64,000 nucleotides of DNA from Dehalococcoidia bacterium (GCA_965247925.1 CBDFIB010000004.1:195499-259498); one strand, 5' to 3'; shown: positions 3,647-19,693, counted from the first letter of the stretch. A program made the numbers and translations. The notes: generated by a model from the sequence alone, not told the origin.

Positions 3647-3780
3647 GGCGCCGCTCCACCCCTCGCGCTCCCCGGATGTCCGAGTCTAGCCAGGCCGCCG
3701 GACGGCGGCCAGCAGCGCCCGCCGGACGCAGCACCTATCATTGGATGCCGCCAGGCCACGGTCCGCGCCACGGAGGCTCG

Positions 3781-4217: not shown

Positions 4218-4230
4218 CCGTGCTGCCGAC

Positions 4231-6400: not shown

Positions 6401-6419
6401 CGAGGGCGCCCCGGCGCGA

Positions 6420-6851
6420 TCAGACGATCTCGGCCGGGATCTCCTCGATCACGCCGCCCTGGTGAATGTAGTAGGCGTGCAGCGGAGGAGGTTCCCCGGC
6501 GAGCGAGACGAGCAGGTAGATGGTTCCCGGATAGGCCGGCTCGCGATCCGTCTCGCCGGGCGGGAAGAACGCCATCCGCACGTCCGTCTGCGAGGGGTAT
6601 GCGGGCGAGGCGACGTGCGAGTGATAGATCGCGAACAGCGCCTCGCCTCGTTCGTCGCGCTGCTGCTCCAGCCGCATCTGCTCCATGCCGTGCATCTCGA
6701 AGCGGTAGGGGCTGGCGGCGACGTTGGTCACGGGGTGCACGGAGACGGCCTCGCCGTCCTGGGCGTGCACCAGGCCGCAGGCCTCGTTCGGCAGATCCTC
6801 GCGGGCGTGCGCGATGATCGCATCGGCGAGGGCGCGCGGGATCCGTGGCAT
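6420..6851 (-). CDS. mec: Mec-like JAMM/MPN+ metalloprotease (CysO/MoaD-type sulfur-carrier deconjugase)
   Basis: EACG...HSHVASPAYPSQTD JAMM motif. Overall similarity in length and layout to mycobacterial Mec (Rv1334). Confidence 0.85.
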   Translation of the reverse strand: MPRIPRALADAIIAHAREDLPNEACGLVHAQDGEAVSVHPVTNVAASPYRFEMHGMEQMRLEQQRDERGEALFAIYHSHVASPAYPSQTDVRMAFFPPGETDREPAYPGTIYLLVSLAGEPPPLHAYYIHQGGVIEEIPAEIV

Positions 6852-6878
6852 CGTTCCTCCGAAGCGGTTCTTGCGCGG

Positions 6879-7268
6879 CTACCAGGCCGTCGGCTCGCCG
6901 TCGTCGATGCAGGCGTTCCCGCTGAGGCGCATCAGCGCGAAGTTGGCGCTCGACGGCGGCGCCGCGAGGTGCTCGAGCCAGTGCGCGCGTTCGGACTCGG
7001 GCAGGCGCTCGGCGAAGTCCGAGGCGAACACCTCGATCTCCTCCTCGCCGGGCGCGATCCCGGCGTCGATCGACCAGCCACGCACGATCGCGATGCGGCC
7101 GACGCTGCGCGTGCGCAGCAGCCGCGCGTCAGCCCGCTCGCGGTAGCGGTCGAGGACGGAGGCGCGGAAGCGCAGCGGGAGCAGGCCGTAGTCGCCGCGC
7201 GCGACCGCGCGCTCGACCAGCGCGCGCTGCGATCCCCGCGCCCCGCCGTCGCTGTCCTCAGCGGCCAT
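6879..7268 (-). CDS. Hypothetical protein, 129 aa (possibly an SseC/DUF1416-like partner of the rhodanese; family assignment from memory only)
   Basis: ORF between the rhodanese and mec on the same strand, with genome-typical codon usage and no recognisable catalytic motif. Confidence 0.45.
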   Translation of the reverse strand: MAAEDSDGGARGSQRALVERAVARGDYGLLPLRFRASVLDRYRERADARLLRTRSVGRIAIVRGWSIDAGIAPGEEEIEVFASDFAERLPESERAHWLEHLAAPPSSANFALMRLSGNACIDDGEPTAW

Positions 7269-7274
7269 CGGCTC

Positions 7275-8099
7275 CTACGTCTCGATCGGCACGCCGATCA
7301 GCGAGCCGTACTCGGTCCACGAGCCGTCGTAGTTCTTCACGTCGTCGTGGCCGAGCAGGTACTTGAGCACGAACCAGGTGTGCGAGGAGCGCTCGCCGAT
7401 GCGGCAGTAGGCGATTGCCGGCTCGTCCTCGACGACGCCCGCGCCGCCGTAGATCTCGCGCAGATCGTCGGCGCTGCGGAAGGTGCCGTCCTCGTTGACG
7501 GCGCGCGCCCAGGGCACGTTGATCGCGCCGGGGATGTGGCCGCCGCGCTGCGCCGTCTCCGGCAGGCCAGGCGGCGCGATGATCTCGCCGACGAACTCGG
7601 CCGGGCTGCGCACGTCCACCAGCTGCGGCGCCTGCGCCGCGACAGCCGCGAGGATCTCGTCGCGCTGGGCGCGCAGGCTGGCGTCCTGCTCCTGCGCCGT
7701 GTAGCTGGCGCGTCCAATCGAGGGCGCGTCGGTCGTGACCTCGCGCCCGTCGGCGATCCACTTCACGCGGCCGCCGTCCATCAGCGAAACCTGCTCGTGG
7801 CCGTGAAGCTCCAGCAGCCACAGCGCGTAGGCCGCGAACCAGTTGTTGTTGTCGCCGTAGAGCACCACGTGCGTGTCGTTGCTGATGCCAGAAGACGCCA
7901 GCAGGTCCTCAAGGTCGTCCTTCGCGATCACGTCGCGGCGCACCTGGTCCTGCAGCTGCGTCGCCCAGTTCCAGCCGGCGGCGCCCGCGATGTGGCCCTC
8001 GTCGTAGGCGCCGGTGTCGACGTCGACCTCGACGAGGCGCACGTTCGAGTCGCTTCCGTGTTCGGCTACCCAGTCCGCCGTCACAAGCTTGTCCGTCAT
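7275..8099 (-). CDS. sseA: Thiosulfate/3-mercaptopyruvate sulfurtransferase (tandem rhodanese domains)
   Basis: Two rhodanese domains; active-site CRIGERSS loop. Start taken at MTDKLVTADWV (ATG 8099) rather than the track's 8153. Confidence 0.85.
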   Translation of the reverse strand: MTDKLVTADWVAEHGSDSNVRLVEVDVDTGAYDEGHIAGAAGWNWATQLQDQVRRDVIAKDDLEDLLASSGISNDTHVVLYGDNNNWFAAYALWLLELHGHEQVSLMDGGRVKWIADGREVTTDAPSIGRASYTAQEQDASLRAQRDEILAAVAAQAPQLVDVRSPAEFVGEIIAPPGLPETAQRGGHIPGAINVPWARAVNEDGTFRSADDLREIYGGAGVVEDEPAIAYCRIGERSSHTWFVLKYLLGHDDVKNYDGSWTEYGSLIGVPIET

Positions 8100-8208
8100 G
8101 GTCCGTTCCCCTCTCGGGCGGCAGGGCCGCACCAAACTCGACTTTGTTGGCAAAGATTATCAACATCAGCGCCGCAGCACAACCGCCGGCGACGCATCGC
8201 CGCTCCGG

Positions 8209-9165
8209 CTACCACCAGAGCGTCGTGTTCACGTCCTCCTCGATCGCGTCGTAGTCCTGCGTCCAGAGGCCCGAGGACAGGTACTTCCAGCCGCTGTCCG
8301 CGAGCAGGCAGACGACCTTGCCGCTGCGCATCCGCTCCGCCGCGCGCTGCGCGGCGCGCACCGCCGCCCCGCTGGAGACGCCGGCGAAGATGCCCGTGCG
8401 CTCGGTCAGCTCCCGCGTCAGCCGGAACGAGGTCGCCGAGTCGACGACGATCCGCCCGTCGAGCACGGACTCGTCGAGGACGGGCGGGATGTAGCCCTCC
8501 TCGAGGCTGCGCAGGCCCTGCACCAGGTCGCCCGGATGCGGGGCCGCGGCGACGATGCGCACGGCCGGGTTGTGCTCCTTCAGCCGCCGCCCGACGCCGG
8601 TCAGCGTCCCGCCGGTTCCGAGGCCGGCGACGAAGACGTCGGTGTCCGGCAGGTCCGCGATGATCTCCGGGGCCGTGCTCTCGTAGTGGGCGCGCGGGTT
8701 GTCCTCGTTGTCGTACTGGAAGGGCATGAACCACTCGGGGTGCTCGGCGTGGATCCGCTGCGCCTCGCGCACCGAGCCGTTGGTGCCGAGGTCGCCCGGC
8801 GAGTAGAGGATCTCCGCGCCGAAGCTCTCGAGCAGCTCGACGCGCTCGCGGGTGACGGCGTCCGGCATCACCACCTTCACTGGGTAGCCACGCAGGCGGC
8901 CGATCATCGCCAGCGAGATGCCGGTGTTGCCGGAGGTCGGCTCGAGGATCGTCTGGCCGGGCTCTAGGCGGCCGTCGCGCTCGGCGGCGGAGACCATCCA
9001 CCAGGCGATGCGGTCCTTGACGGAGCCGGTCGGGTTCTCACCCTCCAGCTTCGCGTAGATGCTCACCTCGGGGTTGGGCGACATCACGGAGATGTCGACC
9101 AGCGGCGTGCCGCCGATGCGGTCGAGCAGGCTGCCGGCGGGCGTCCGTCCCGTCGCCTTAGCCAC
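8209..9165 (-). CDS. cysM: Cysteine synthase B-type (CysO-thiocarboxylate / O-phosphoserine dependent), PLP enzyme
   Basis: PTGSVKDR lysine motif and GNTG loop. Sits immediately downstream of a MoaD-like GG carrier, as in mec-cysO-cysM loci. Confidence 0.85.
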   Translation of the reverse strand: MAKATGRTPAGSLLDRIGGTPLVDISVMSPNPEVSIYAKLEGENPTGSVKDRIAWWMVSAAERDGRLEPGQTILEPTSGNTGISLAMIGRLRGYPVKVVMPDAVTRERVELLESFGAEILYSPGDLGTNGSVREAQRIHAEHPEWFMPFQYDNEDNPRAHYESTAPEIIADLPDTDVFVAGLGTGGTLTGVGRRLKEHNPAVRIVAAAPHPGDLVQGLRSLEEGYIPPVLDESVLDGRIVVDSATSFRLTRELTERTGIFAGVSSGAAVRAAQRAAERMRSGKVVCLLADSGWKYLSSGLWTQDYDAIEEDVNTTLWW

Positions 9166-9180
9166 GAGGGCCCCCCGCCG

Positions 9181-9456
9181 CTAGCCGCCGGCCAGCGCGG
9201 GCAGGATCGACACCTCGTCGCCCTCGCTCAGCGCGGTCTCGGCGCCCTGCAGGAAGCGCACGTCCTCGTCGTTGAGGTAGACGTTGACGAAGCGGTGCAG
9301 TTGCCCGCCCTCGTCGACGAGTTGCGAGCGGAAGCCCGGATAGCGCCGCTCGATGTCGTCGATCAGCTCCGCGACGGTGCCGCCCTCGGCGGTCAGTGCG
9401 CGCTGACCGCCGACGGTCTTCTGGATCACCGAGGTCATGTTGACCTGCACCAGCAA
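9181..9456 (-). CDS. cysO: MoaD/ThiS/CysO-family sulfur-carrier protein (beta-grasp, C-terminal Gly-Gly)
   Basis: 91 aa ending ...SILPALAGG, MoaD-like pattern. 15 nt upstream of cysM. Confidence 0.8.
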   Translation of the reverse strand: MLVQVNMTSVIQKTVGGQRALTAEGGTVAELIDDIERRYPGFRSQLVDEGGQLHRFVNVYLNDEDVRFLQGAETALSEGDEVSILPALAGG

Positions 9457-9498: not shown

Positions 9499-10617
9499 CT
9501 AGTGCCCGCCGCCGTTGGCCGTCAGGGCCTCGAGCGGTGGGGCGCCGCAGAACGCGTCGTAGTCGATGAGCTCCGTCACGGTCGGCTCGTCACCGCAGAG
9601 CGGGCAAGCCGGATCGCGCCGCAGCTTCATCTCGCGGAACTCCATGGTCAAGGCGTCGATGAGCAGCAGCCGCCCGACGAGCGGCCGGCCGACGTCGAGC
9701 ACCTGTTTGAACACCTCGGTCGCCTGGATCGAGCCGACGATGCCGGTAATCGAGCCCAGCACGCCCGCCTCGGCGCAGGAGGGCACCAGGCCCGGCGGCG
9801 GCGGCGCGGGGTAGAGGCAGCGGTAGCAGCCCTGGCCCGGCTTGAAGACGGTGGCCTGCCCGTCGAAGAGCAGGATCGAGCCGTCCACCAGCGTCTTGCC
9901 CAGCAGGTAGGCGGCGTCGTTGACCAGGTAGCGCGTCGCGAAGTTGTCCGCGCCGTTCACCACGATCTCGTAGTCCGCGAGGATCTCCATCGCGTTCTCC
10001 GAGTGCAGCGGCGCCGGGTGCGTCACAACCCGCACGTGCGGGTTGTAGGCGTGCAGCGTGTCCACCGCCGAGTCGAGCTTCGTGCGCCCGACGTCCTCGG
10101 TCTGGTGCAGCAACTGGCGCTGCAGGTTGGAGAGGTCCACCACGTCGAAGTCGACGAGCCCGATCGTGCCGACGCCGGCGAGCGCGAGGTAGATCGCGAC
10201 CGGGGAGCCGAGGCCGCCCGCGCCCACGATCAGCACCTTCGCGTTGCGCAACTGGCGCTGCCCGATCGAGCCCACCTGCGACATGACGATGTGCCTCGAG
10301 TAGCGCATCGCCTCGTCCGGGGTGAGCGCCGCGCTCGGCGCGGCGCCGCCCGCGAGGGCGGGGATGACCGCGACCTGGTCGCCGTCTCCGACGGCGGTCG
10401 CGACGCCGTCGAGCTCGTGGATCTCCTGGTTGTTGACGTAGATGTTGATGTGCGCGGGCACCCGGCGCTCGCGGTCGTAGACGAGCATGTCGAAGCCCGG
10501 GTAGCGCGCGTTCACCGCGTCGAGGACGCCCGCCACGTCGCCGCCGTCCACCTCGACGTACTCGCGATTGGCCGTGAACTTGCGGAATGGCTGTGGGATG
10601 TAGACGCTGACCGCCAT
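9499..10617 (-). CDS. Fusion protein: N-terminal MoaD/CysO-like ubiquitin-like domain (ends ...IPALAGG) + MoeB/ThiF-type E1 adenylyltransferase with C-terminal CxxC...CPLC zinc motif; no rhodanese domain
   Basis: Residues 1-91 from ATG 10617 (MAVSVYIPQPF...VIPALAGG) resemble the two stand-alone carriers. These are followed by MRYSRHIVM...LIVGAGGLGSP (ATP-binding GxGxxG)...CYRC...CPLCG. The track start at 10746 would overlap cysK, so the internal ATG at 10617 (or 10650) is preferred. Confidence 0.85.
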   Translation of the reverse strand: MAVSVYIPQPFRKFTANREYVEVDGGDVAGVLDAVNARYPGFDMLVYDRERRVPAHINIYVNNQEIHELDGVATAVGDGDQVAVIPALAGGAAPSAALTPDEAMRYSRHIVMSQVGSIGQRQLRNAKVLIVGAGGLGSPVAIYLALAGVGTIGLVDFDVVDLSNLQRQLLHQTEDVGRTKLDSAVDTLHAYNPHVRVVTHPAPLHSENAMEILADYEIVVNGADNFATRYLVNDAAYLLGKTLVDGSILLFDGQATVFKPGQGCYRCLYPAPPPPGLVPSCAEAGVLGSITGIVGSIQATEVFKQVLDVGRPLVGRLLLIDALTMEFREMKLRRDPACPLCGDEPTVTELIDYDAFCGAPPLEALTANGGGH

Positions 10618-10682
10618 CTCCGATCGCCGTCCTTCCTGCCGATCTGCCATGTGCTCCTGATCCGTTCCCTGTCCCCTGTTGC

Positions 10683-11636
10683 TCATGAGAGCGCCACGCT
10701 CAGGTAGCGCTCGCCCGTGTCGCAGAGCATCGTCACCACGCGACACCCCGGACCGAGCCGCTTGCCAACCTCGATCGAGGCCCAGACGTTGCTGCCGGAG
10801 GAGATGCCGACGAGCAGGCCTTCCTCGCGGCTGAGCCGCTCCGTTATCCGGAAGGCGTCCTCGTCGCGGACGCTGATCACCTCGTCGTAGATCTCGCGGT
10901 TGAGTACGCCCGGCACGAACGAGGCGCCGATGCCCTGGATGCCGTGCAGCCCCGCCCGCCCGCCCTGCAGCACCGGCGAGCGCGCCGGCTCGACGGCGAC
11001 GATGCGCACGTCCGCGGCGGCCTCGCGCAGCACCTCGCCGATGCCGGTGATCGAGCCGCCGGTGCCGACGCCGGCCACGAACGCGTCCAGCTCGCCGCCG
11101 GTCGCCTCGAGGATCTCGGGCCCCGTCGTCTCGCGGTGGATGCGCGGGTTGGCGAGGTTGTCGAACTGCTGCGGCATGAAGTAGCCGTGCTGCTCGGAGA
11201 GCTCGCGGGCGGCGTAGACCGCGCCCGTCATGCCCTCGATCGCCGGGGTCAGCCGCAGCTCCGCGCCGAAGCGCTCCAGCAGGCGGCGCCGCTCGACGCT
11301 CATGTCCTCCGGCATCGTCAGGATCAGCCGGTAGCCCTTGCGCGCGCAGACCATCGCGAGGCCGATGCCGGTGTTGCCGGAGGTCGGCTCGACGATCGTG
11401 TCGCCTAGCTCGATCAGTCCCTCGCGCTCGGCGTCCTCGATCATGCTGAGCGCGATCCGGTCCTTGACGGAGCCGGCCGGATTGCGCGATTCGAGCTTGC
11501 CGAGGATCTCGGCGCAGCCCTCGGGCACGACGCGGCCGAGCCGCACCAGCGGCGTGTCGCCGATCAGATCGAGCACGGTGTCGGCGATCGCCGGCTGGGC
11601 GCGACGACCCTCGGTGGTCGGCGCGGTGGTCGTCAT
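10683..11636 (-). CDS. cysK: Cysteine synthase A (O-acetylserine sulfhydrylase)
   Basis: GSVKDR, TSGNTG, typical CysK. Start at MTTTAP (ATG 11636), overlapping by 1 nt the TGA of the upstream Rrf2 gene. Confidence 0.85.
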   Translation of the reverse strand: MTTTAPTTEGRRAQPAIADTVLDLIGDTPLVRLGRVVPEGCAEILGKLESRNPAGSVKDRIALSMIEDAEREGLIELGDTIVEPTSGNTGIGLAMVCARKGYRLILTMPEDMSVERRRLLERFGAELRLTPAIEGMTGAVYAARELSEQHGYFMPQQFDNLANPRIHRETTGPEILEATGGELDAFVAGVGTGGSITGIGEVLREAAADVRIVAVEPARSPVLQGGRAGLHGIQGIGASFVPGVLNREIYDEVISVRDEDAFRITERLSREEGLLVGISSGSNVWASIEVGKRLGPGCRVVTMLCDTGERYLSVALS

Positions 11637-12082
11637 CAGATCGAGTAGTTCGCCGCGCGTGCGTGCTGCTTCGCCCGCGCGCGCTCCGCGAGGTCGGCGA
11701 TGCTCACCGCGCCGAGGCGGCTGCGCATGTCCTCGTAGATCTCCTCCCAGACGGTGCGCTGGGCGCAAAGACCGCATTCGAACGAGCACTCCTCACCGTC
11801 CTCGATGCAACTGATCGGCGCGACCGAGCCCTCGAGCGTCTCGATCACGTGCAGCAGGCACATCTCCTCGGGCTTGCGAGTGAGCAGGTGGCCGCCTCCG
11901 GGGCCGCGCACGCTGCGCACGAAGCCGCCGCGCCGCAGCAGGGCGAGCAGGTGGTCGAGGTAGGACTCCGGGATCTCCTGGCGACCGGCGATTCCCGCGC
12001 GCTGGACCGGCCCCTCGCCGTCGTGGAGCGCGAGGTCAATGAGCGCGCGAACGCCGTAATCGCCCTTCCTGCTCAGCCACAT
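11636..12082 (-). CDS. Rrf2-family transcriptional regulator (CymR/IscR-like)
   Basis: MWLSRKGDYGVRALIDLA... wHTH, plus three Cys in CIEDGEECSFECGLC (possible Fe-S ligands). Start at internal ATG 12082. Confidence 0.8.
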   Translation of the reverse strand: MWLSRKGDYGVRALIDLALHDGEGPVQRAGIAGRQEIPESYLDHLLALLRRGGFVRSVRGPGGGHLLTRKPEEMCLLHVIETLEGSVAPISCIEDGEECSFECGLCAQRTVWEEIYEDMRSRLGAVSIADLAERARAKQHARAANYSI

Positions 12083-12085
12083 TTT

Positions 12086-12140
12086 CCCGACCGCCGCTAA
12101 TGTCGAGTAAGTTGACCAACATTCTAGCACAAGGGTCGGT
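12086..12140 (-). promoter_or_regulatory. Candidate promoter/operator of the Rrf2-cysK... operon
   Basis: On the coding strand: ...TTGTGCTAGAATGTTGGTCAACTTACTCGACATT then ATG. Extended -10 (TGcTAGAAT) followed by an imperfect palindrome GTTGgtCAAC overlapping the predicted transcription start region. Confidence 0.3.
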
Positions 12141-12200
12141 TGGGCCAAGCACTCGGGGATCGGGGCAGGTCAGCGTCCACGGGCGTCACTCGGGATTCGA

Positions 12201-13286: not shown

Positions 13287-13580
13287 GTGACTGCCCCCGG
13301 AATTGCTCCTTGATTCATAAGCCCTCACCCCAACCCTCTCCCTCAGGGAGAGGGGGCCGGAGCGGTCAGTCCCCGATTGTGCGCGGGGGGAAATCCCTGG
13401 CCGGGTGCGCCGCGAGCACTGCTTCATCGAGGTCGATGCCGAGGCCCGGCGCGGTGGGGAGGGCGATGTGGCTGTCCTCGACCTCGAAGGCCGGCGTCGC
13501 GGCTTCCCGGCCCCACGGCTCGAAGTTCACGAAGCAACCGGTGATGATGAAGCTGGGCATCATCACCGGCGGCAGTATGC
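13225..13580. repeat. Direct repeat copy A (~350 bp, ~90% identical to 15100-15450)
   Basis: By-eye alignment of 13262-13580 with 15127-15450. It covers the 5' end of the MR gene at 12201, a conserved palindrome ccctctccctcagggagaggg (13334-13354), and a 3' fragment of a paralog of the MR gene at 15240. Confidence 0.8.
13366..13566 (-). pseudogene. C-terminal fragment (about 66 aa) of an MR-family paralog (a copy of the 3' end of gene 15240..16376)
   Basis: ...FIITGCFVNFEPWGREAATPAFEVEDSHIALPTAPGLGIDLDEAVLAAHPARDFPPRTIGD is nearly identical to the C-terminus of the intact gene at 15240, but has no upstream body. Confidence 0.6.
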
Positions 13581-13635
13581 GCGACTTTGTGAACGAGCAG
13601 AAGGCTCGCCAGGAACGCGGCGAGGCAACCGACTG

Positions 13636-15033: not shown

Positions 15034-15064
15034 TGGTCAGCTCCGTCCGAATCGGTCGTTTCCC

Positions 15065-15160
15065 AGTCCCGGCTCGGGGGTCGGGCTGATCGACGCCGAC
15101 GATGAGGGGATTAACGTCCGGGGTCTGCAGCACACGGGTGGTCCAGTTGCTTACTCTCAT
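15065..15160 (-). pseudogene. N-terminal fragment (about 30 codons) of a paralog of MR gene 12201..13286
   Basis: MRVSNWTTRVLQTPDVNPLIVGVDQPDPRAG matches MKVSSWTTRVLQTPADNPLVVGIDEPGTREF, then diverges and runs into the amidase start. Confidence 0.5.
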
Positions 15161-15450
15161 GTGACTGCCCCTGGAATTGCTCCTTGATTCATACGCCCTC
15201 ACCCCAACCCTCTCCCTCAGGGAGAGGGGGCCGGAGCGGTCAGTCGCCGATTGTACGCGCGGGGAAGTCCCTCGCTGGATGAGCCTCGAGGACTGCTTCA
15301 TCGAGGTCGATGCCGAGGCCCGGCGCGGTGGGGAGGGCGATGTGGCTGTCCTCGACCTCGAAGGCCGGCGTCGCGGCCTCCTGGCCCCACGGCTCGAAGT
15401 TCACGAAGTACTCCGTGATGATGAAGTTCGGCATCGTCGCCGCGGCCTGC
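15100..15450. repeat. Direct repeat copy B (partner of 13225-13580)
   Basis: See copy A. Contains the same palindrome at 15208-15228. Confidence 0.8.
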
Positions 15451-16376
15451 AGCGTCGCGGCCAGCGCCACGGTCGTCGAGTTGTAGTTGTGCGGAGCGAC
15501 CGCGACGAAGTACGCCTCGGCCATCGCGGCGATCTCCGTCAGTTCCTTGATGCCGCCCACGTTCGCCACGTCGGGATTGATGATGTCCGCCGCGCGCTGC
15601 TCGAAGACCTCGCGGAACTCGAACTTCGTGTAGAGTTCCTCGCCCGTGACGGTGGGGATGTTGATCTGCGCCGTCGCGGCGGCCAGGGCGGTCACGTTCT
15701 CGGCCCAGACCGGCTCCTCGAACCAGAACGGCTCGTACTCCTCGACCATCTTCGCGAGGCGCACCGCGTTCGAGGGACTCAGCCGGCGGTGGACCTCGAC
15801 CAGCACGTCGACGTCGGGGCCGACCGCCTCGCGAACCGCGCGCACGCGATCGGCGGCGACGCGCAGCTCCTTCATGCCCACGTAGCTGCGCCACTTGCCC
15901 GGCACCGGATCGAACTTGAGCCCGGTGAACCCGCGCTCGACCATCGCGCGCGCTCGCGCCTGCAGCTCCTCGAGGTCGTCCATCCTCGCCCAGCCGTTGG
16001 CGTAGACGCGCAGCCGATCGCGCACCGCGCCGCCGAGCAGCTGGTGCACGGGCATCCCCGCACGCTTGCCCGCGAGGTCCCACATCGCCTGTTCCACACC
16101 GGAGATCGCCGCGTACAGGTCCATCGCGCCGCGCCGGTTGCCGAAGTCGTTGTGGATGGCGTCGGTCCAGGGCTTAATCCGCGCCGAGTCCCAACCCACG
16201 ATGTAGCGCCGCAGCGCCTCGAGGTGCGCCGTGATCTGGATGTCGCGGTCCGACTGCGTGTAGCACTCGCCCCAGCCGTGCAGCCCGTCGGCCGTCTCCA
16301 GCCGGACGAAGCAGAGGTTCTTGCCCGCGATGTAGCGATCCGGCTGCCCCGTGTCGGGCGGCGTGGGGTGGACCAG
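15240..16376 (-). CDS. Mandelate racemase / muconate lactonizing enzyme family protein, start codon non-canonical or unresolved
   Basis: TIM-barrel part in track ORF 15240..16199 (KFDP..., EEP, PDV). The N-terminal capping domain (...KNLCFVRLETADGLHGWGECYTQSDRD...) continues in frame upstream to a TGA at 16401-16403 with no ATG/GTG/TTG. The only candidate start is CTG 16376. Confidence 0.65.
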   Translation of the reverse strand: MVHPTPPDTGQPDRYIAGKNLCFVRLETADGLHGWGECYTQSDRDIQITAHLEALRRYIVGWDSARIKPWTDAIHNDFGNRRGAMDLYAAISGVEQAMWDLAGKRAGMPVHQLLGGAVRDRLRVYANGWARMDDLEELQARARAMVERGFTGLKFDPVPGKWRSYVGMKELRVAADRVRAVREAVGPDVDVLVEVHRRLSPSNAVRLAKMVEEYEPFWFEEPVWAENVTALAAATAQINIPTVTGEELYTKFEFREVFEQRAADIINPDVANVGGIKELTEIAAMAEAYFVAVAPHNYNSTTVALAATLQAAATMPNFIITEYFVNFEPWGQEAATPAFEVEDSHIALPTAPGLGIDLDEAVLEAHPARDFPARTIGD

Positions 16377-16487
16377 GTGTAGCGAAGGTGAGTGGAGCGG
16401 TCAAGGTCTCCCGATTCGCCGATCGCAACGAGAGGCCGGCGATCATTCGCCTACCCCTCCAGCGTTGCGTGGACTGCCGACGGCGCG

Positions 16488-16763
16488 CTAGCCTCCGGCG
16501 ACCGCCGGGACGATCGAGACCTCGTCGCCCTCGGCCAGCTCGCTGGCGAGGCCGGAGAGGAAGCGCACGTCCTCGCCGTTGACGAAGACGTTCACGAAGC
16601 GGCGCAGTTCGCCGTCTTCCTCGCAGAGCCGCTCGCGCATCCCGGGGTAGGACGCCTCGAGGTTCTGAACCACGTCGCCGAGGGTTGCGCCCTCGAGGCT
16701 GACCAGCTCCTGGTCCCCGGTCAGGGTGCGGAGCGGGGCGGGGATTCGCACGTTCACTGCCAT
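16488..16763 (-). CDS. MoaD/ThiS/CysO-like sulfur-carrier protein (C-terminal Gly-Gly), paralog of 9181..9456
   Basis: 91 aa ending ...SIVPAVAGG. RRFVNVFVNGEDVRFLSG...EGDEVSI is near-identical in pattern to the cysO-like protein. Confidence 0.8.
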   Translation of the reverse strand: MAVNVRIPAPLRTLTGDQELVSLEGATLGDVVQNLEASYPGMRERLCEEDGELRRFVNVFVNGEDVRFLSGLASELAEGDEVSIVPAVAGG

Positions 16764-16818
16764 CGCAGCGGTCCTCTCGATGCCGGGCCCGGCGGGGCCG
16801 GGCGGGATTGCAGCCGGG

Positions 16819-17067
16819 TTAGCCCTCGACGATGTCGCCGAGGGTGGCCTGATCGACGCGCACGCCCTTCGCCTGGGCCCAGGCGATCGCGCGGTCGATC
16901 TCGTCGGGTTCGCCCTCGAGCTCGAGCACGACCCAGCCGACGCGCTCGTCGACGTCCGCCATGCGGATGTTGGTGACGACCTCGAACTCGCGGCCGATCA
17001 GGTAGATCAGCGGCTCCTTGATCAGTTCGGGCGAGAAGGTGAAGCGGACCGGTCTGCTCGCCATCAT
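16819..17067 (-). CDS. NIL-domain protein (MetN C-terminal-like ferredoxin fold), 82 aa
   Basis: Only the last 82 codons of track ORF 16819..18291 are plausible: MMASRPVRFTFSPELIKEPLIYLIGREFEVVTNIRMADVDERVGWVVLELEGEPDEIDRAIAWAQAKGVRVD. The ATG at 17067 overlaps the TGA of the upstream ThrC-like gene (ATGA). Confidence 0.75.
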   Translation of the reverse strand: MMASRPVRFTFSPELIKEPLIYLIGREFEVVTNIRMADVDERVGWVVLELEGEPDEIDRAIAWAQAKGVRVDQATLGDIVEG

Positions 17068-18323
17068 GCGCCTCCTGCCGCGGCCGCGGCGGGCGCCCGC
17101 CGCGCCTCGTAGGCCTCGAAGAATGCGTCGCTGCGGGCGGGCACGTGCAGCGGGCTGGAGAGGCCGCCCTGCAGCGCCTCGGTGGTCTTGAGGCCGCCGC
17201 CGGTGATGAAGGCGACGGTCTCCTCGCCGGGCGCGATCTGGCCGCGTTCGGCCATGTGCTTGAGGCAGGCGATCGTGGTGCCGCCCGCCGTCTCGGCGAA
17301 GATGCCCTCGGTCTCCGCGAGCAGCTTCATGCCCTCGACGATCTCCGCGTCCGTGGCCATCGCCGCGACGCCGTTCGTCTCCTCCAGCGTCTTGAGCGCA
17401 TAGTACCCGTCCGCCGGGTTGCCGATCGCGATCGAGCGCGCGATCGTGTTCGGCTTCTGCGGCCGGAAGTTGAGCGTGCCCTCCTCGAAGGCGGTCGCGA
17501 TCGGCGAGCAGCCGGTCGCCTGCGCGCCCGACATGCGCGTCCGCGGCTCGTCGATCAGGCCGACCTGGTGCAGCTCCTTGAAGCCCTTCCAGATCTTCGT
17601 GAAGAGCGAGCCCGAGGCCATCGGCACCACGCAGTGGTCCGGTGTGCGCCAGCCGAGCTGCTCGGCCACCTCGAAGGCGAGCGTGCGCGAGCCCTCGGCG
17701 TAGTAGGGCCGCACGTTGATGTTGACGAAGGCCCACGGCTTGGACTGCGCGACCTCGGTGCAGAGCCGGTTCACGTCGTCGTAGGAGCCCTCGACCATCA
17801 CGAGGGTCGGGTTGTAGACGCCGCTGCCGACGACCTTGCCCTCCTCGAGGTCTTGCGGGATGAAGACGATCGTCTCCATGCCGGCGCGCGCGCCGTGCGC
17901 GGCGACGGAGTTGGCGAGGTTGCCGGTGCTGGCGCAGGCGATGCCCGTGTAGCCGAACTCGCGCGCCTTCGCGATCGCGACGGCGACGACGCGGTCCTTG
18001 AACGACCACGTCGGGTTGACGGTGTCGTTCTTGATCCAGAGCCGCTCGATGCCCAGCGCGTCCGCCAGGCGGTCGGCGCGGAGCAGCGGCGTGAACCCCG
18101 CTGCGAGGTCTACGCGGTACTCGGGATCGGAGGGCAGCAGATCGGCGTAGCGCCAGAGCGTGGCCGGGCCGGCGGCGATCGACTCGCGGGAGATCGCGTT
18201 GGCGATGCCCTCGTAGTCGTAGTCGACCTCGAGGGGGCCGAAGCAGAACTCGCAGAAGAAGATCGGTTTGAGCGGGAACTCGCGACCGCACTCGCGGCAG
18301 CGCAGGGATTGTTCGAAGGACAT
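17064..18323 (-). CDS. Threonine synthase-family PLP enzyme with N-terminal zinc ribbon (candidate O-phosphohomoserine sulfhydrylase / homocysteine synthase rather than canonical ThrC)
   Basis: CRECGREF...CEFCFG zinc ribbon. SFKDR PLP-lysine motif and the ThrC fold. Operon context with NIL + MoaD-like carrier. Confidence 0.85.
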   Translation of the reverse strand: MSFEQSLRCRECGREFPLKPIFFCEFCFGPLEVDYDYEGIANAISRESIAAGPATLWRYADLLPSDPEYRVDLAAGFTPLLRADRLADALGIERLWIKNDTVNPTWSFKDRVVAVAIAKAREFGYTGIACASTGNLANSVAAHGARAGMETIVFIPQDLEEGKVVGSGVYNPTLVMVEGSYDDVNRLCTEVAQSKPWAFVNINVRPYYAEGSRTLAFEVAEQLGWRTPDHCVVPMASGSLFTKIWKGFKELHQVGLIDEPRTRMSGAQATGCSPIATAFEEGTLNFRPQKPNTIARSIAIGNPADGYYALKTLEETNGVAAMATDAEIVEGMKLLAETEGIFAETAGGTTIACLKHMAERGQIAPGEETVAFITGGGLKTTEALQGGLSSPLHVPARSDAFFEAYEARRAPAAAAAGGA

Positions 18324-18545
18324 GGCAGGAATGCTCCGGGCTGCGGTAGGGGTGACGCGAGGGGCGCCCGCCTGACCCCGCCGCTGGCGGGGCGAGCGGG
18401 CTAGCGCATCACCATGGAGCCCCGGTCGTACCGGTGCACCGCGGCAGCGTCGAGGAGCAAGAGCTGTCGTTCGCTCATCGTGTCCGCTTCCGCGCCGTGC
18501 GCTCGCGCCGCTGGCCGCGCACGGGGCGCGGGCCGTGCGTCGAGG

Positions 18546-18830
18546 CTATGAACGCCTCCTGTTGCTGTCAACAGCACACGTCGCCGCCATCATCGCACGC
18601 CGCACCGCGCCGGCGTCGATGCGGCCCTCGCTGACCTCGCAGCCGTCGACGGCGATGACGGGCACGCGATCGCCGTAGCGGGCGGCCAGCGCCGCGTCGG
18701 CGTCCACGTCGCGCTCGCGCAGATCGAAGGCGAACTCGCGGCCGAGGCGGCGCAGTGCGTCGCGGGCGTGCGCGCAGGGGCCGCAGCCCTCGCGGCCGTA
18801 GAGCACGACCTGCGGCGCGGCCTCGGTCAC
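18546..18830 (-). CDS. Glutaredoxin-like protein (CGPC active site)
   Basis: VVLYGREGCGPCAHARDALRR...VPVIAVDG. GTG start at 18830 overlaps the lgt stop (GTGA). Confidence 0.7.
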   Translation of the reverse strand: MTEAAPQVVLYGREGCGPCAHARDALRRLGREFAFDLRERDVDADAALAARYGDRVPVIAVDGCEVSEGRIDAGAVRRAMMAATCAVDSNRRRS

Positions 18831-19693
18831 CGCCGGGCGGCGAGCATCCGCCCGACCAGCGGCAGGCGCTCGAGCGGCGCGGGCCCATCGATCGGCGGGC
18901 GGGTCGCGAAGTACCAGACGGCCGGCAGCGAGGCGAGCACGGCGAGCAGCGAGACCAGCTGCGGGACGCGCAGATCGAGCAGGAACGTCTCGCTGGAGTC
19001 GACACGCAGGTAGGTGAGGAAGAAGCGCATCACCGCGTAGCCGATCAGGTAGGCGCAGAAGGTCAGCCCCGGCCGCCGCCAGAGCGCGCCGAACATCAGC
19101 ACGAACAGCGCCCCGAGGATCACGAGGTCGCCGATCAGCTCGTACGTCGTCGCCGGGTGGTGCGGCCCGACGGCGAGCGAGTGCACGAAGGCCGGCGAGT
19201 CCAGGTGCGTGTAGAAGACGGCCCATGGCAGGTCGCTCGCGTTCGCGAGGTGCTCGCCGTTGACGAGGTCGCCAAGGCGCCCGGTCGCCTGCCCGAGGAT
19301 GATCCCGAAGCTGGCGATGTCCAGGCCTCGGGCAATCGGGTAGCCCTTCCAGAGTCCGAAGGCCAGCGCGCCGCCGACACCACCGAGGATCGCACCCCAG
19401 ATCGAGATGCCGCCCTCGGTGATGCGGATCATCGCGACGGGGTCGCCGCTGAACCGCGACCAGTGCTCGATCACGAAGAGCGCCCGCGCCCCGACGATCC
19501 CGCTCGGCACGCCGACGAGGGCGAGCGTGTAGGCGTCGTCATAGTCGTAGTCGACGACCTTCGCGAGCATCAGCGAGAGCCGCACGCCGGCGAAGATCCC
19601 GATCGCGGTGAAGAGCCCGTGCCAGGTCAGCAGCAGCCCGCCGATCTTCGTGATGCTCGGATCCCACGGGATCTCGATCGAGAGGATCGGCAT
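18827..19693 (-). CDS. lgt: Prolipoprotein diacylglyceryl transferase
   Basis: Lgt signature G...GGxxG...RLGDLVNGEH, multi-TM. Confidence 0.9.
   Translation of the reverse strand: MPILSIEIPWDPSITKIGGLLLTWHGLFTAIGIFAGVRLSLMLAKVVDYDYDDAYTLALVGVPSGIVGARALFVIEHWSRFSGDPVAMIRITEGGISIWGAILGGVGGALAFGLWKGYPIARGLDIASFGIILGQATGRLGDLVNGEHLANASDLPWAVFYTHLDSPAFVHSLAVGPHHPATTYELIGDLVILGALFVLMFGALWRRPGLTFCAYLIGYAVMRFFLTYLRVDSSETFLLDLRVPQLVSLLAVLASLPAVWYFATRPPIDGPAPLERLPLVGRMLAARR

What the first reader, a model, noticed from the sequence alone, without database searches (positions are those of the whole stretch)
16488..18323. Zn-ribbon ThrC-family enzyme + NIL-domain protein + MoaD-like GG carrier: candidate thiocarboxylate-dependent homocysteine synthesis module
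The three genes are co-directional. The ThrC-like stop overlaps the NIL start (ATGA) and the carrier follows 55 nt later. A stand-alone threonine synthase does not need a sulfur carrier. This arrangement instead resembles the sulfur-carrier-dependent methionine routes (the HcyS/MetY type, and the recently reported ThrC-homolog MetM/MetO route that sulfhydrylates O-phosphohomoserine). I recall the latter only from memory. The N-terminal CxxC...CxxC ribbon is atypical for housekeeping ThrC of high-GC Gram-positives. The carrier is a close paralog of the cysO-like gene 7 kb away, so the E1/Mec machinery of the cysteine cluster could serve both.
Basis: partly seen in the sequence, partly recalled or inferred. 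Interest (0 to 1): 0.7.

Follow-up and report, generated by a model that had tools for sequence, protein, structure and literature searches.

The report
Sulfur-carrier homocysteine synthase with NIL partner
This three-gene cluster, annotated everywhere as "threonine synthase" plus two small proteins, is most likely a recently described route that makes the methionine precursor homocysteine using a ubiquitin-like sulfur-carrier protein, here with an extra, uncharacterised small methionine-sensor-like (NIL) protein that recurs across several bacterial phyla.

Summary
Three co-directional minus-strand genes are present: a Zn-ribbon ThrC-like PLP enzyme (17064-18323), an 82-aa NIL protein (16819-17067, start overlapping the enzyme's stop) and a 91-aa ThiS/MoaD carrier ending in GG (16488-16763).

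The homocysteine interpretation is well supported by comparative evidence:
- Of 80 related loci, 68 have the carrier immediately downstream.
- 47 have a SAM-I riboswitch directly upstream. One has a T-box read as Met-specific.
- Nitrospirota embed the genes behind SAM-II-metK-ahcY together with E1 and JAB genes.
- The enzyme clade is separated by a long branch from proven ThrCs (35-38% identity).
- A cultured actinomycete has both this paralog and a normal thrC-thrB.

The module is therefore a MetM/MetO-type system (Hasebe 2024) in a Chloroflexota genome, not a high-GC Gram-positive.

What is not in the held descriptions of that pathway is the NIL gene. It is adjacent in 38 of 80 loci, in two gene orders and at least three phyla. 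It is fused to the carrier or to JAB elsewhere. It keeps the Met-binding Asn of the MetN C2 domain. I infer a methionine-responsive regulator or adaptor, which is untested.

The window lacks the riboswitch and instead has a Met-x-Met uORF leader. No biochemistry is available, and the rest of the genome could not be checked for another thrC.

The parts
17064..18323 (-). MetM-like homocysteine synthase candidate: ThrC-family fold-type II PLP enzyme, 419 aa, with an N-terminal CxxC...CxxC Zn ribbon (C9, C12, C24, C27) and PLP lysine K109 (SFKDR).
   Evidence: Family matches. Closest homologs are 73-96% identical Chloroflexota 'threonine synthases'. It falls in a clade with all riboswitch- or T-box-linked proteins and is 35-38% identical to proven ThrCs. 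Clade-specific changes occur at ThrC positions T88L, S155N, N157R, R160Y and N188S.
16819..17067 (-). Standalone NIL-domain protein, 82 aa (81 aa from the second ATG), translationally coupled to the enzyme gene. Proposed methionine-responsive regulator or adaptor.
   Evidence: PF09383 at 57.2 bits. The AF2 model has pLDDT 89.6 and a beta-alpha-beta-beta-alpha-beta fold. Its best PDB match is the MetN C2 domain in the SeMet-bound state, 3tuz, TM 0.80, rmsd 1.4 A. N33 and A37 align with MetN N295 and A299 and are 93% and 100% conserved (roles from PMC6233128). Adjacent to the enzyme in 38 of 80 loci. Fusions to ThiS and JAB exist.
16488..16763 (-). MetO-like sulfur-carrier protein (ThiS/MoaD/CysO fold), 91 aa, ending in free ...AGG.
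   Evidence: Family matches. Best solved relatives are M. tuberculosis CysO 3dwg_C (2e-25) and 4n6e_B. A carrier lies immediately downstream of the enzyme, or after NIL, in 68 of 80 loci. Those carriers score higher against this protein than against the window's CysO-like paralog.
18324..18545 (-). 222-nt leader without a SAM riboswitch. It contains a 25-codon uORF (18478..18401, MSERQLLLLDAAAVHRYDRGSMVMR*), the conserved motif AUGGUGAUG (18415..18407), a GC-rich hairpin (about 18400..18366) and a 3' arm CGCGUCACC (18359..18351). The outer helix pairs uORF codons with the SD GGAG of the enzyme gene.
   Evidence: No Rfam match at E<=10 and no match to my own SAM-I model with filters off. The motif is about 12-fold enriched upstream of the enzyme gene in 14 Chloroflexota loci. 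MFE is -80.7 kcal/mol, z = -3.04, and 0 of 200 shuffles fold as well. The helix test is mixed.
9499..10650 (-). Likely shared activating enzyme: a ThiS-like domain (ending ...ALAGG), a linker, then a ThiF/MoeB-type E1 adenylyltransferase with no rhodanese domain. The start is probably the ATG at 10650 or 10617.
   Evidence: PF00899 ThiF 263 bits plus PF02597 ThiS 40 bits. MoeB and MoeZ models match only the E1 part. Sequence.
6420..6851 (-). JAB/Mec-type metalloprotease. Candidate hydrolase that releases the amino acid from a carrier adduct and could cleave the carrier-E1 fusion.
   Evidence: PF14464 Prok-JAB 74.7 bits. Matches the desampylase model at 64.9 bits, below its cutoff. JAB lies in the same operon as the module in Nitrospirota and L006.
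7275..8153 (-). Tandem rhodanese sulfurtransferase. Candidate sulfur donor for thiocarboxylate formation, since the E1 lacks its own rhodanese domain.
   Evidence: PF00581 with 2 stretches, 107 bits. 3-mercaptopyruvate sulfurtransferase-like at 130.7 bits, below cutoff.
8209..9456 (-). CysO-like carrier (9181..9456) and CysM-type cysteine synthase (8209..9165): the neighbouring carrier-dependent cysteine module.
   Evidence: The two carriers are 47% identical.
10683..12148 (-). CysK (ORF 10683..11789; the true start is probably near 11630 or later) and an Rrf2/CymR-like regulator (11636..12148) heading the cysteine cluster.
   Evidence: TIGR01139 cysK 432 bits, above cutoff. The Rrf2 superfamily model matches at 118 bits; the CymR model at 93 bits is below its cutoff.

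Best explanation
The three genes form a MetM/MetO-type, protein-thiocarboxylate-dependent homocysteine synthase module, in a Chloroflexota variant that carries a third component.

Proposed mechanism:
1. The carrier (16488-16763) is adenylated at its C-terminal Gly-Gly by the ThiF-type E1 encoded 6 kb away. It is then converted to a thiocarboxylate, with sulfur probably supplied by the tandem rhodanese.
2. The ThrC-like PLP enzyme (17064-18323) binds O-phospho-L-homoserine and eliminates phosphate, as threonine synthase does.
3. Instead of adding water at C-beta, it accepts the carrier thiocarboxylate at C-gamma.
4. Homocysteine is released directly or after hydrolysis of a carrier-homocysteine adduct by the JAB protease (6420-6851). 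It is then methylated to methionine.

What is shown and what is inferred:
- Shown: the gene content, the methionine-linked regulation of the clade in relatives, and the separation from bona fide ThrC.
- Inferred: the chemistry, taken from the published S. albulus system as summarised in papers I could read.
- Weaker inference (about 0.45): the 82-aa NIL protein is a methionine-responsive module. It would dimerise like the MetN C2 domain, bind L-Met across the dimer interface, and throttle the carrier/enzyme system post-translationally.
- Weaker still (about 0.3): in this lineage the usual SAM riboswitch appears to be replaced by a structured leader with a Met-x-Met uORF. That leader may couple expression to Met-tRNA supply.
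For: Published pathway as summarised in held papers: MetM is a ThrC homolog 'often misannotated' as threonine synthase, MetO is the sulfur carrier, and Mec and MoeZ are also required. A SAM riboswitch lies upstream in S. albulus.

Gene context:
- Carrier adjacent in 68 of 80 loci.
- SAM-I riboswitch directly upstream on the same strand in 47 of 80 loci, including 10 loci with the same three-gene order (Rfam gathering hits; own model).
- L026 has a T-box with AUG in the specifier position, ahead of enzyme-carrier-E1-cysK.
- Nitrospirota: SAM-II-metK-ahcY-cysK-E1-enzyme-carrier-NIL-E1-JAB.

Paralogy to ThrC:
- The NJ tree separates the clade from B. subtilis, A. aeolicus and Nonomuraea ThrCs.
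- Nonomuraea has SAM-I followed by a Zn-ribbon paralog and a carrier, and elsewhere a thrC-thrB pair.
- Price 2018 noted that Aquifex and Acidimicrobium lacked any known homocysteine route. Both lineages carry this clade.
- Residues I recall as ThrC's phosphate-retaining site are replaced clade-wide.

Accessory genes: E1, JAB, rhodanese and the CysO/CysM module are present in the window and are contiguous with the module in L006 and L012.

NIL:
- Conserved in two gene orders in Chloroflexota, Nitrospirota and Armatimonadota.
- In-frame ThiS-AGG-linker-NIL, JAB-NIL and tandem NIL-NIL proteins exist.
- Fold and the N295/A299 equivalents match the methionine-binding MetN C2 domain.
- A NIL domain is also attached to the unrelated archaeal homocysteine synthase L-ASST, where methionine inhibition is hypothesised.
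Against: - There is no biochemical or genetic evidence for this protein or for any Chloroflexota member.
- I could not obtain the S. albulus MetM sequence, so orthology to the characterised enzyme is indirect.
- The window itself has no SAM riboswitch or T-box.
- The protein passes NCBIfam's thrC equivalog cutoff.
- I could not test whether the genome has another thrC. If it does not, this enzyme must also make threonine.
- A cyanobacterial relative, 51.6% identical to MetM and next to a MetO-like gene, showed threonine synthase and deaminase activity in vitro and no clear MetM role. It was assayed with sulfide rather than a thiocarboxylated carrier (PMC12172450).
- No thrB or hom is in the window, so the substrate supply is unverified.

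Against the NIL role specifically:
- NIL is absent from the 36 two-gene loci, mostly Actinomycetota, so it is not essential to the chemistry.
- NIL also pairs with a LarE-type sulfur transferase in Acidimicrobiia.
- The NIL/riboswitch anticorrelation is confounded by phylogeny.
- No ligand or partner has been shown.
Confidence: 0.75

Rival explanations
1. It is the organism's housekeeping threonine synthase. The NIL and ThiS-like genes are unrelated neighbours.
For: It passes TIGR00260 thrC (282.6 bits, cutoff 167.1) and nearly passes PRK08197 (300.3 against 303). All database relatives are named threonine synthase. The PLP lysine and most core residues are shared with ThrC. No other thrC is in the 64-kb window.
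Against: TIGR00260 is also passed by the Nonomuraea paralog, which sits behind a SAM riboswitch while a true thrC-thrB exists elsewhere, so the model does not discriminate. The clade is on a long branch from proven ThrCs at 35-38% identity. 47 of 80 relatives are SAM-riboswitch controlled, one is under a T-box read as Met-specific, and 68 of 80 have the carrier adjacent. There is translational coupling to NIL. There is no thrB or hom context.
Confidence: 0.05
2. It is a bifunctional or moonlighting enzyme: a threonine synthase/threonine deaminase of the kind reported for the Microcystis relative. It might make both threonine and homocysteine, depending on carrier availability.
For: PMC12172450 reports threonine synthase and deaminase activities for a Microcystis protein 51.6% identical to MetM and adjacent to a MetO-like gene. 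The first half-reaction (phosphate elimination from O-phosphohomoserine) is common to both chemistries.
Against: That study did not supply a thiocarboxylated carrier. Regulation in relatives is by SAM and Met signals, not Thr or Ile signals. The residues I recall as enforcing ThrC's water addition are replaced.
Confidence: 0.08
3. The module makes a different sulfur compound with the carrier. Candidates are cysteine from O-phosphoserine (as CysM/CysO does), cysteate, or a thio-amino acid for a cofactor or natural product.
For: The carrier's closest solved relatives are CysO proteins. ThrC homologs include cysteate synthase (weak match to TIGR03844). The locus neighbours a cysteine cluster.
Against: A dedicated CysO/CysM pair and a CysK already exist 7 kb away. 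The regulatory signals in relatives are SAM-I, SAM-II with metK and ahcY, and a T-box read as Met-specific, all specific to methionine and SAM. The cysteate synthase model scores 64.9 bits against a cutoff of 324.9. The flanking genes are housekeeping, with no biosynthetic cluster context.
Confidence: 0.05
4. This rival concerns only the NIL protein. It is not a methionine sensor. It is a structural adaptor or chaperone of the sulfur-carrier machinery (docking carrier, E1, JAB or enzyme), or a homocysteine-binding hand-off protein.
For: The fusions are to the carrier and to JAB, not to the enzyme. In Acidimicrobiia NIL is start/stop-coupled to a LarE-family sulfur transferase. NIL coexists with SAM riboswitches in 10 loci, so transcriptional feedback already exists there. 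Lineages with NIL tend to have E1s without a rhodanese domain.
Against: There is no conserved cysteine in 40 family members, so it cannot relay persulfide or bind an Fe-S cluster. The fold and the two residues central to L-Met-dependent locking of MetN C2 dimers are retained. In both other known contexts (MetN and L-ASST) NIL accompanies methionine-related proteins. In MetN it binds methionine and mediates transinhibition; in L-ASST that role is only hypothesised.
Confidence: 0.3

Closest known systems
MetM/MetO O-phosphohomoserine route to homocysteine in Streptomyces albulus (Hasebe et al. 2024, Appl Environ Microbiol 90:e01247-24; known here through GapMind 2026 preprint 10.1101/2024.10.14.618325 and PMC12172450)
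   Same: A ThrC-homologous PLP enzyme is followed by a ThiS/MoaD-type carrier. It depends on an E1 (MoeZ-type) and a JAB hydrolase (Mec). Regulation in relatives is methionine/SAM-linked. It is routinely misannotated as threonine synthase.
   Different: An 82-aa NIL gene lies between enzyme and carrier. There is no SAM riboswitch in this lineage; a Met-x-Met uORF leader sits in its place. The E1 lacks a rhodanese domain and is fused to a third ThiS-like domain. The carrier ends directly in GG. The host phylum is Chloroflexota. Sequence orthology to the characterised protein was not tested directly.
CysO/CysM/Mec+/MoeZ cysteine pathway of Mycobacterium tuberculosis (PDB 3DWG)
   Same: The logic is the same: a thiocarboxylated ubiquitin-like carrier attacks a PLP-bound intermediate derived from a phosphorylated amino acid, and a JAB protease then acts. 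The carrier here is most similar to CysO among solved structures. A genuine CysO/CysM module lies 7 kb away.
   Different: The enzyme is ThrC-like (gamma chemistry on a C4 substrate), not CysM-like. The product is inferred to be homocysteine rather than cysteine.
HcyS/HcyF/HcyD/MetY thiocarboxylate pathway of Wolinella succinogenes (Krishnamoorthy and Begley; from my own knowledge)
   Same: A protein thiocarboxylate is the sulfur donor for homocysteine. E1-type and JAB-type accessory enzymes are used.
   Different: That pathway uses a MetY-type fold-type I enzyme and O-acetylhomoserine. No such enzyme is at this locus, and the PLP enzyme here is fold-type II ThrC-like.
Threonine synthase ThrC (B. 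subtilis 6CGQ, T. thermophilus 1UIM, A. aeolicus 2ZSJ, M. tuberculosis 2D1F)
   Same: Same fold, PLP lysine motif and probable substrate. It passes the TIGR00260 model.
   Different: It shows 35-38% identity and falls in a separate clade. It has an extra N-terminal Zn ribbon and a 7-residue insertion. It has substitutions at T88, S155, N157, R160 and N188 (B. subtilis numbering). The regulation and gene context differ.
NIL (C2) domain of the methionine ABC importer MetN, and the NIL-ferredoxin subunit of archaeal/Desulfovibrio L-aspartate-semialdehyde sulfurtransferase (MA1822)
   Same: Same Pfam family and fold. The Asn and Ala that mediate L-Met-dependent dimer locking in MetN are conserved. 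In all three contexts NIL accompanies methionine or homocysteine proteins.
   Different: Here NIL is a free-standing 80-82 aa protein with no ATPase domain, no ferredoxin domain and no conserved cysteine. Its partner and ligand are unknown.

Membership tests
MetM/MetO thiocarboxylate-dependent homocysteine synthesis | ThrC-homologous fold-type II PLP enzyme with the catalytic lysine | tested here: met
   PF00291 at 9.6e-70 and TIGR00260 at 282.6 bits. The SFKDR lysine K109 is invariant across 85 sequences.
MetM/MetO thiocarboxylate-dependent homocysteine synthesis | Enzyme is a paralog distinct from housekeeping ThrC | tested here: met
   For the clade: a long-branch split from three ThrCs, and 35-38% identity. 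Nonomuraea has both the SAM-linked paralog and thrC-thrB. For this particular genome, coexistence with another thrC could not be tested.
MetM/MetO thiocarboxylate-dependent homocysteine synthesis | Adjacent ThiS/MoaD-type sulfur carrier with C-terminal Gly-Gly (MetO) | tested here: met
   ORF 16488..16763 ends AGG-stop. A carrier is adjacent in 68 of 80 related loci.
MetM/MetO thiocarboxylate-dependent homocysteine synthesis | SAM riboswitch upstream of metM (as reported for S. albulus) | tested here: not met
   None in the window (Rfam gathering and E<=10; own model with filters off). Present in 47 of 80 relatives. This is a regulatory feature rather than a catalytic one, so it does not exclude membership.
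MetM/MetO thiocarboxylate-dependent homocysteine synthesis | E1 adenylyl/sulfurtransferase (MoeZ) and JAB hydrolase (Mec) available | tested here: met
   A ThiF-type E1 at 9499..10650 and a JAB at 6420..6851. The E1 lacks the MoeZ rhodanese domain, and a separate tandem rhodanese lies at 7275..8153.
MetM/MetO thiocarboxylate-dependent homocysteine synthesis | Sequence orthology to the characterised S. albulus MetM | not testable with these tools
   The paper and the sequence are not held. The homolog search from the Nonomuraea protein reached only Streptosporangiales. Indirect evidence: 50% identity to the Nonomuraea SAM-linked protein, which is 35% identical to B. subtilis ThrC, against 33% reported for MetM.
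MetM/MetO thiocarboxylate-dependent homocysteine synthesis | O-phosphohomoserine plus carrier thiocarboxylate gives homocysteine | not testable with these tools
   This requires enzymology or complementation.
Bona fide threonine synthase (ThrC) | Scores above the curated equivalog cutoff | tested here: met
   TIGR00260 at 282.6 bits against 167.1. However, the SAM-riboswitch-linked Nonomuraea paralog also passes at 270.2, so the test does not discriminate.
Bona fide threonine synthase (ThrC) | Phosphate-site residues that retain the released phosphate for C-beta water addition (T88, S155, R160, N188 in B. subtilis and T. thermophilus numbering; the role is recalled from Omi 2003 and Murakawa 2011, which were not readable here) | tested here: not met
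   They are replaced by L136, N203, Y208 and S237 in at least 95% of 82 clade members, with a new R205.
Bona fide threonine synthase (ThrC) | Threonine-pathway gene context (hom/thrB) | tested here: not met
   No thrB or hom in the window. By contrast, the Nonomuraea thrC is directly followed by thrB.
CysO/CysM/Mec cysteine pathway | CysM/CysK-type O-phosphoserine sulfhydrylase as the carrier's partner | tested here: not met
   The partner at this locus is ThrC-like. It shares only 32% identity over 112 residues with the window's CysK. A true CysO/CysM pair exists separately at 8209..9456.
HcyS/MetY pathway (Wolinella type) | MetY-type fold-type I O-acetylhomoserine sulfhydrylase | tested here: not met
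   No such gene was found among the annotated ORFs of the window. The enzyme at the locus belongs to PALP, fold-type II.
NIL domain (PF09383), MetN C2 type | NIL fold with the Asn (N295) and Ala (A299) that mediate L-Met-dependent dimer locking | tested here: met
   PF09383 at 57.2 bits. TM 0.80 to 3tuz. N33 and A37 are conserved at 93% and 100%. The roles come from PMC6233128. Ligand binding itself was not tested.
NIL domain (PF09383), MetN C2 type | Attached to an ABC ATPase domain | tested here: not met
   The protein is a free-standing 82 aa. The family is overwhelmingly 80-82 aa.
L-ASST NIL-ferredoxin subunit (MA1822 type) | Ferredoxin domain with Fe-S cysteines following the NIL domain | tested here: not met
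   There is no ferredoxin domain and no conserved Cys. Source names such as 'FeS-binding protein' and 'L-ASST ferredoxin' are therefore misannotations.

The most novel reading that the evidence does not exclude
The standalone NIL protein is a previously unrecognised, methionine-responsive gate on a ubiquitin-like sulfur-carrier system. It would bind L-Met as a dimer and switch off carrier charging or delivery to the MetM-like enzyme. That would make it a free-standing counterpart of MetN transinhibition that has been recruited repeatedly to sulfur-transfer proteins (carrier, JAB, LarE-type transferase, L-ASST). In this Chloroflexota lineage it would work together with a Met-codon leader peptide that has replaced the SAM riboswitch. 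The pathway would then be controlled by methionine itself at two levels, rather than by SAM.
Probability: 0.3. Interest if true: 0.7.

Novelty: new variant of a known kind. Interest (0 to 1): 0.55.

Why it matters
Annotation. Thousands of genes in Chloroflexota, Acidimicrobiia, Nitrospirota, Aquificota and Armatimonadota are labelled 'threonine synthase', and NCBI's thrC model cannot separate them. If they are homocysteine synthases, metabolic reconstructions and auxotrophy predictions for these largely uncultured, environmentally abundant groups are wrong in two pathways at once. It would also fill the gap noted in 2018 for Aquifex and Acidimicrobium, which lacked any known homocysteine route.

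Mechanism. The conserved NIL partner and its fusions to the carrier and the JAB protease give a concrete, testable handle on how ubiquitin-like sulfur-carrier pathways are feedback-controlled, which is not known. The clade-wide remodelling of ThrC's phosphate site offers a natural experiment in how a PLP enzyme is switched from beta-addition of water to gamma-addition of a thiocarboxylate. The Met-x-Met uORF leader, if functional, would be a candidate methionine-specific leader-peptide control element.

Tried and rejected
1. Reading the primary MetM/MetO paper (PMC11497804) and the ThrC mechanism papers (PMC3024773, PMC7050208). None is held. The pathway description rests on secondary citations, and the phosphate-site roles rest on my memory.

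2. Looking for a riboswitch in the window: Rfam at gathering threshold over the whole window, Rfam at E<=10 on 18200-19000, and my own SAM-I model with filters off. All found nothing.

3. Reaching S. albulus or any Streptomyces ortholog. The plasmid-collection tblastn found none. The last homolog search from the Nonomuraea protein returned only Streptosporangiales.

4. Testing for another thrC in the genome.

5. The glutaredoxin-like CGPC ORF upstream as a possible module component. Rejected, because it travels with lgt in L001, L019 and L020, not with the module.

6. Apparent long 'NIL fusion' P0241 (327 aa) and the 490-aa ORF 16819..18291. These are out-of-frame over-extensions typical of high-GC DNA, not fusions. 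P0382 looks chimeric and was ignored.

7. A universal long-range helix model for the leader. It is supported in the window, L001, L005 and L014, is weaker in L006 and L015, and is not supported in 8 other loci. I claim only the motif plus a downstream hairpin.

8. NIL as a persulfide or Fe-S carrier. Rejected, because there is no conserved cysteine.

9. Sigma-70 promoter and intrinsic terminator scans of the locus were uninformative.

Full report
OBSERVATION. The three genes are present as described, all on the minus strand.
- ORF 17064..18323 encodes a 419-aa PLP enzyme. It matches PF00291 at 9.6e-70, TIGR00260 thrC at 282.6 bits (cutoff 167.1) and PRK08197 at 300.3 bits, just under its cutoff of 303. 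It has an N-terminal C9xxC12...C24xxC27 motif.
- Its TGA overlaps the ATG of an 82-aa NIL-domain ORF (16819..17067; PF09383 at 57.2 bits). The enzyme's last four codons (GCA GGA GGC GCA) contain the AGGAGG Shine-Dalgarno sequence for that gene.
- After a further 55 nt comes a 91-aa ThiS/MoaD protein ending ...AGG-stop (16488..16763).
- The CysO-like paralog 7 kb away is 47% identical.

The window is a 71% GC chromosomal origin region with dnaA, gyrB and many housekeeping genes. The nearest relatives of the enzyme (73-96% identity) and of the NIL protein (70-98%) come from Chloroflexota/Dehalococcoidia MAGs.

WHAT THE LITERATURE SAYS. The primary paper (Hasebe et al. 2024) is not held. The GapMind 2026 preprint summarises the pathway. 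[quoted passage not shown] PMC12172450 adds that S. albulus metM has an upstream SAM riboswitch and that homologs occur in cyanobacteria. MetO is therefore the carrier. A NIL protein is not among the listed components. No paper in the searchable library links a standalone NIL protein to this pathway.

COMPARATIVE GENOMICS OF THE ENZYME. A scan of one genome per species with an alignment of homologs returned 80 loci (59-94% identity). They come from Chloroflexota, Acidimicrobiia and other Actinomycetota, Nitrospirota, Aquificota, Armatimonadota and others. Searching their ORFs with the window's proteins gave the following.

Gene order immediately downstream of the enzyme | Loci
enzyme-carrier | 36
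enzyme-NIL-carrier | 22
enzyme-carrier-NIL | 10
enzyme-NIL | 6
neither | 6 (two of these have too little downstream sequence)

A carrier is thus adjacent in 68 of 80 loci and NIL in 38 of 80.

Independent regulatory evidence ties the clade to methionine:
- Rfam found SAM-I riboswitches at gathering score directly upstream, on the same strand, in 12 of the first 22 loci scanned. A covariance model built from those hits found one in 47 of 80 loci at E<=5e-11. These include 10 Chloroflexota loci with exactly the window's three-gene order.
- L026 has a T-box (102 bits) in that position instead. Alignment to the model leaves GAA-C-AUG-A unpaired on the 3' side of the specifier loop, which places AUG (Met) in the specifier position. 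This is my reading by position.
- In three Nitrospirota loci a SAM-II riboswitch precedes metK, ahcY, a cysK-like gene, an E1, the enzyme, the carrier, NIL, a second E1 and a JAB protease.

PARALOGY TO ThrC. An 11.85-Mb Nonomuraea gerenzanensis chromosome is filed among the plasmids, which allowed a whole-genome view.
- It carries SAM-I, then a 406-aa Zn-ribbon ThrC-like gene (50% identical to the window protein), then a carrier.
- About 9 Mb away it carries a 352-aa gene that is 55% identical to the B. subtilis ThrC of PDB 6CGQ and is directly followed by thrB.
- Both Nonomuraea proteins pass TIGR00260, so that model cannot separate the two families.

A neighbour-joining tree places the window protein, all 80 loci and the Nonomuraea SAM-linked protein in one clade. 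A long branch separates that clade from B. subtilis ThrC, A. aeolicus ThrC (2ZSJ) and the Nonomuraea thrC. The window protein is 35-38% identical to the latter three. All 82 clade members have the CxxC...CxxC motif, and none of the three ThrCs do. The 'Aquifex aeolicus' MAG copy (L030) is only 37.5% identical to the A. aeolicus ThrC structure, so it is a second paralog there too. Price et al. 2018 had pointed out that Aquifex aeolicus and Acidimicrobium ferrooxidans lacked every known homocysteine pathway. Both lineages carry this clade.

Clade-specific residues (at least 95% conserved in the clade, invariant and different in the three ThrCs) include T88L, S89A, S155N, N157R, R160Y, Q164S, N188S and W248G in B. 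subtilis numbering. There is also a 7-residue insertion. From my own memory of Omi et al. 2003 and Murakawa et al. 2011, T88, S155, R160 and N188 hold the substrate/product phosphate, and its retention directs water to C-beta. I could not read those papers. If my recollection is right, the remodelled site fits an enzyme that must let phosphate leave and admit a thiocarboxylate at C-gamma.

ACCESSORY MACHINERY. The neighbouring minus-strand cluster encodes, in order:
- an Rrf2 regulator
- CysK
- a ThiS(...ALAGG)-linker-ThiF E1 fusion without a rhodanese domain
- a CysO-like carrier
- a CysM-type synthase
- a tandem rhodanese
- a conserved 129-aa unknown protein
- a JAB protease

In L012 and L006 these genes are contiguous with the enzyme-NIL-carrier genes. 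In L009 they lie about 1.4 kb upstream of an enzyme-NIL pair that has no carrier of its own.

THE NIL PROTEIN. It belongs to a tightly conserved family of free-standing 80-82 aa proteins. Sources name them inconsistently: 'NIL domain-containing', 'FeS-binding', 'L-ASST ferredoxin' and 'MetN ATPase subunit'.
- Forty family members share F11, P19, N33-I-R35, A37, G44-W45, E49, G52 and D72, and have no conserved cysteine.
- The AlphaFold model (pLDDT 89.6) is a beta-alpha-beta-beta-alpha-beta domain. Its best PDB match is the MetN C2 domain in the selenomethionine-bound, inhibited state (3tuz, TM 0.80, rmsd 1.4 A), followed by ACT domains.
- N33 and A37 align with MetN N295 and A299. [quoted passage not shown]
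- An exhaustive search of cluster representatives found 661 relatives, mostly about 80 aa. It also found tandem NIL-NIL proteins, in-frame ThiS-AGG-linker-NIL fusions (P0296, P0348, P0319), a JAB-NIL fusion (P0289) and an oxidoreductase-NIL fusion.
- In Acidimicrobiia, where NIL is not adjacent to the enzyme, a NIL gene 3-5 kb downstream overlaps the stop of a LarE-family ATP-dependent sulfur transferase.
- A NIL domain is also part of the ferredoxin subunit of the unrelated homocysteine synthase L-ASST, where methionine feedback is hypothesised.

NIL therefore repeatedly accompanies sulfur-transfer proteins of methionine metabolism. It looks able to bind an amino acid as a dimer, and it cannot itself carry sulfur. 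I infer a methionine-responsive regulator or adaptor of the carrier/enzyme system.

A suggestive pattern is that all 36 loci without NIL have a SAM-I riboswitch or T-box, whereas only 10 of 38 NIL loci do. That contrast largely follows phylum boundaries, so it is weak evidence.

REGULATION IN THE WINDOW. No riboswitch is present. The 222-nt leader contains a 25-codon uORF ending ...S-M-V-M-R-stop.
- The nucleotide motif ATGG(C/T)GATG (Met-Val/Ala-Met) occurs 76-175 nt upstream of the enzyme start in 14 Chloroflexota loci. That is 0.43 per kb, against 0.035 per kb over all fetched sequence.
- It is always followed by a strong GC-rich hairpin.
- In five of those loci it lies downstream of a SAM-I aptamer.
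- In the window, L001, L005 and L014 the motif pairs with a segment at or near the enzyme's ribosome-binding site. There is a U.G to U-A difference between the window and L001, and C-G elsewhere. The helix is not supported in eight other loci.
- The window leader folds with z = -3.0, and its outer helix pairs uORF codons with the SD.

A Met-codon leader-peptide control is a reasonable hypothesis but is not established.

CAVEATS.
- There is no experimental evidence for any member outside Streptomyces.
- Orthology to S. albulus MetM is indirect.
- I could not determine whether this genome has another thrC. The window has none, and it has no thrB.
- A Microcystis relative behaved as a threonine synthase/deaminase in vitro, although it was not assayed with a thiocarboxylated carrier.

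VERDICT. The locus is best filed as a Chloroflexota member of the MetM/MetO-type pathway. It has two features not found in the descriptions I could read: a conserved NIL partner, and a riboswitch-free Met-uORF leader. That makes it a new variant of a known kind.

Noticed in passing
window 18324-18545 (-); uORF 18478..18401, motif 18415..18407; also L001, L005-L011, L014, L015, L018-L020: A conserved leader motif ATGG(C/T)GATG (Met-Val/Ala-Met inside a 20-30 codon uORF) followed by a GC-rich hairpin lies 76-175 nt upstream of the ThrC-like gene in 14 Chloroflexota loci, about 12 times the background density. In some loci it pairs with the RBS region. In five loci it sits downstream of a SAM-I aptamer. 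It could be a methionine-specific leader-peptide or translational attenuator.
   Followed up: partly
window 9499-10746 (-): The E1 gene encodes a third ThiS/MoaD-like domain ending ...ALAGG. It is fused through an 11-residue linker to a ThiF/MoeB adenylyltransferase with no rhodanese domain. A JAB protease could release the carrier domain. The same fusion appears in L001 but is split in L012.
   Followed up: partly
database proteins P0296, P0348, P0319, P0289, P0242, P0381: Natural fusions of the NIL domain exist: carrier(AGG)-linker-NIL, JAB-NIL, tandem NIL-NIL, and a GFO/IDH/MocA oxidoreductase-NIL.
   Followed up: partly
L063 6877-8009; L059 10365-11530; L050 about 12406-12645: In Acidimicrobiia a standalone NIL gene overlaps the stop of a LarE-family ATP-dependent sulfur transferase (TIGR00268, 295 bits). 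It lies a few kb downstream of the riboswitch-enzyme-carrier genes, after groEL and a chlorite-dismutase-like gene.
   Followed up: partly
L026 5670-5924: A T-box leader (102 bits) with AUG in the specifier position precedes a ThrC-like-carrier-E1-cysK operon in an Actinobacteria MAG. That would make it a Met-tRNA-sensing switch on this pathway.
   Followed up: partly
L041, L060, L065 (about 1350-9100): Some Nitrospirota/Leptospirillum-type loci have a single array: SAM-II riboswitch, metK, ahcY, cysK-like, E1, ThrC-like, carrier, NIL, second E1, JAB. It contains two E1 genes but only one carrier.
   Followed up: partly
window 18546-18826 (-): A glutaredoxin-like DUF836 ORF with a CGPC motif lies between lgt and the module and is missed by simple ORF lists. 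It follows lgt in L001, L019 and L020, so it is linked to lgt, not to the module.
   Followed up: yes
window 6879-7268 (-); L009 2942-3346: A 129-aa protein with no Pfam or NCBIfam match sits between the tandem rhodanese and the JAB protease. It is conserved in the same position in L009, so it may be an unrecognised component of the carrier machinery.
   Followed up: no
L081, L082 (NZ_LT559118.1): The 11.85-Mb Nonomuraea gerenzanensis chromosome is filed as a 'plasmid' in PLSDB with almost no annotation. NCBIfam TIGR00260 (thrC equivalog) is passed by both its housekeeping thrC and its SAM-riboswitch-linked paralog. All 120 closest homologs of the latter are named 'threonine synthase'.
   Followed up: yes
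L030, L066, L038, L040: Aquificota and some other loci have the ThrC-like gene without an adjacent carrier or NIL. In L040 the carrier and NIL are 1.8 kb away. Price et al. 2018 listed Aquifex as lacking any known homocysteine pathway.
   Followed up: no
window 12149-16487: An amidase (13636-15033) and an enolase-superfamily MR/MLE gene (15240-16199) separate the methionine module from the cysteine cluster here. There is also a lower-GC stretch (0.65-0.67 at 12-16 kb). In L012 the two modules are contiguous, which suggests an insertion in this lineage.
   Followed up: no
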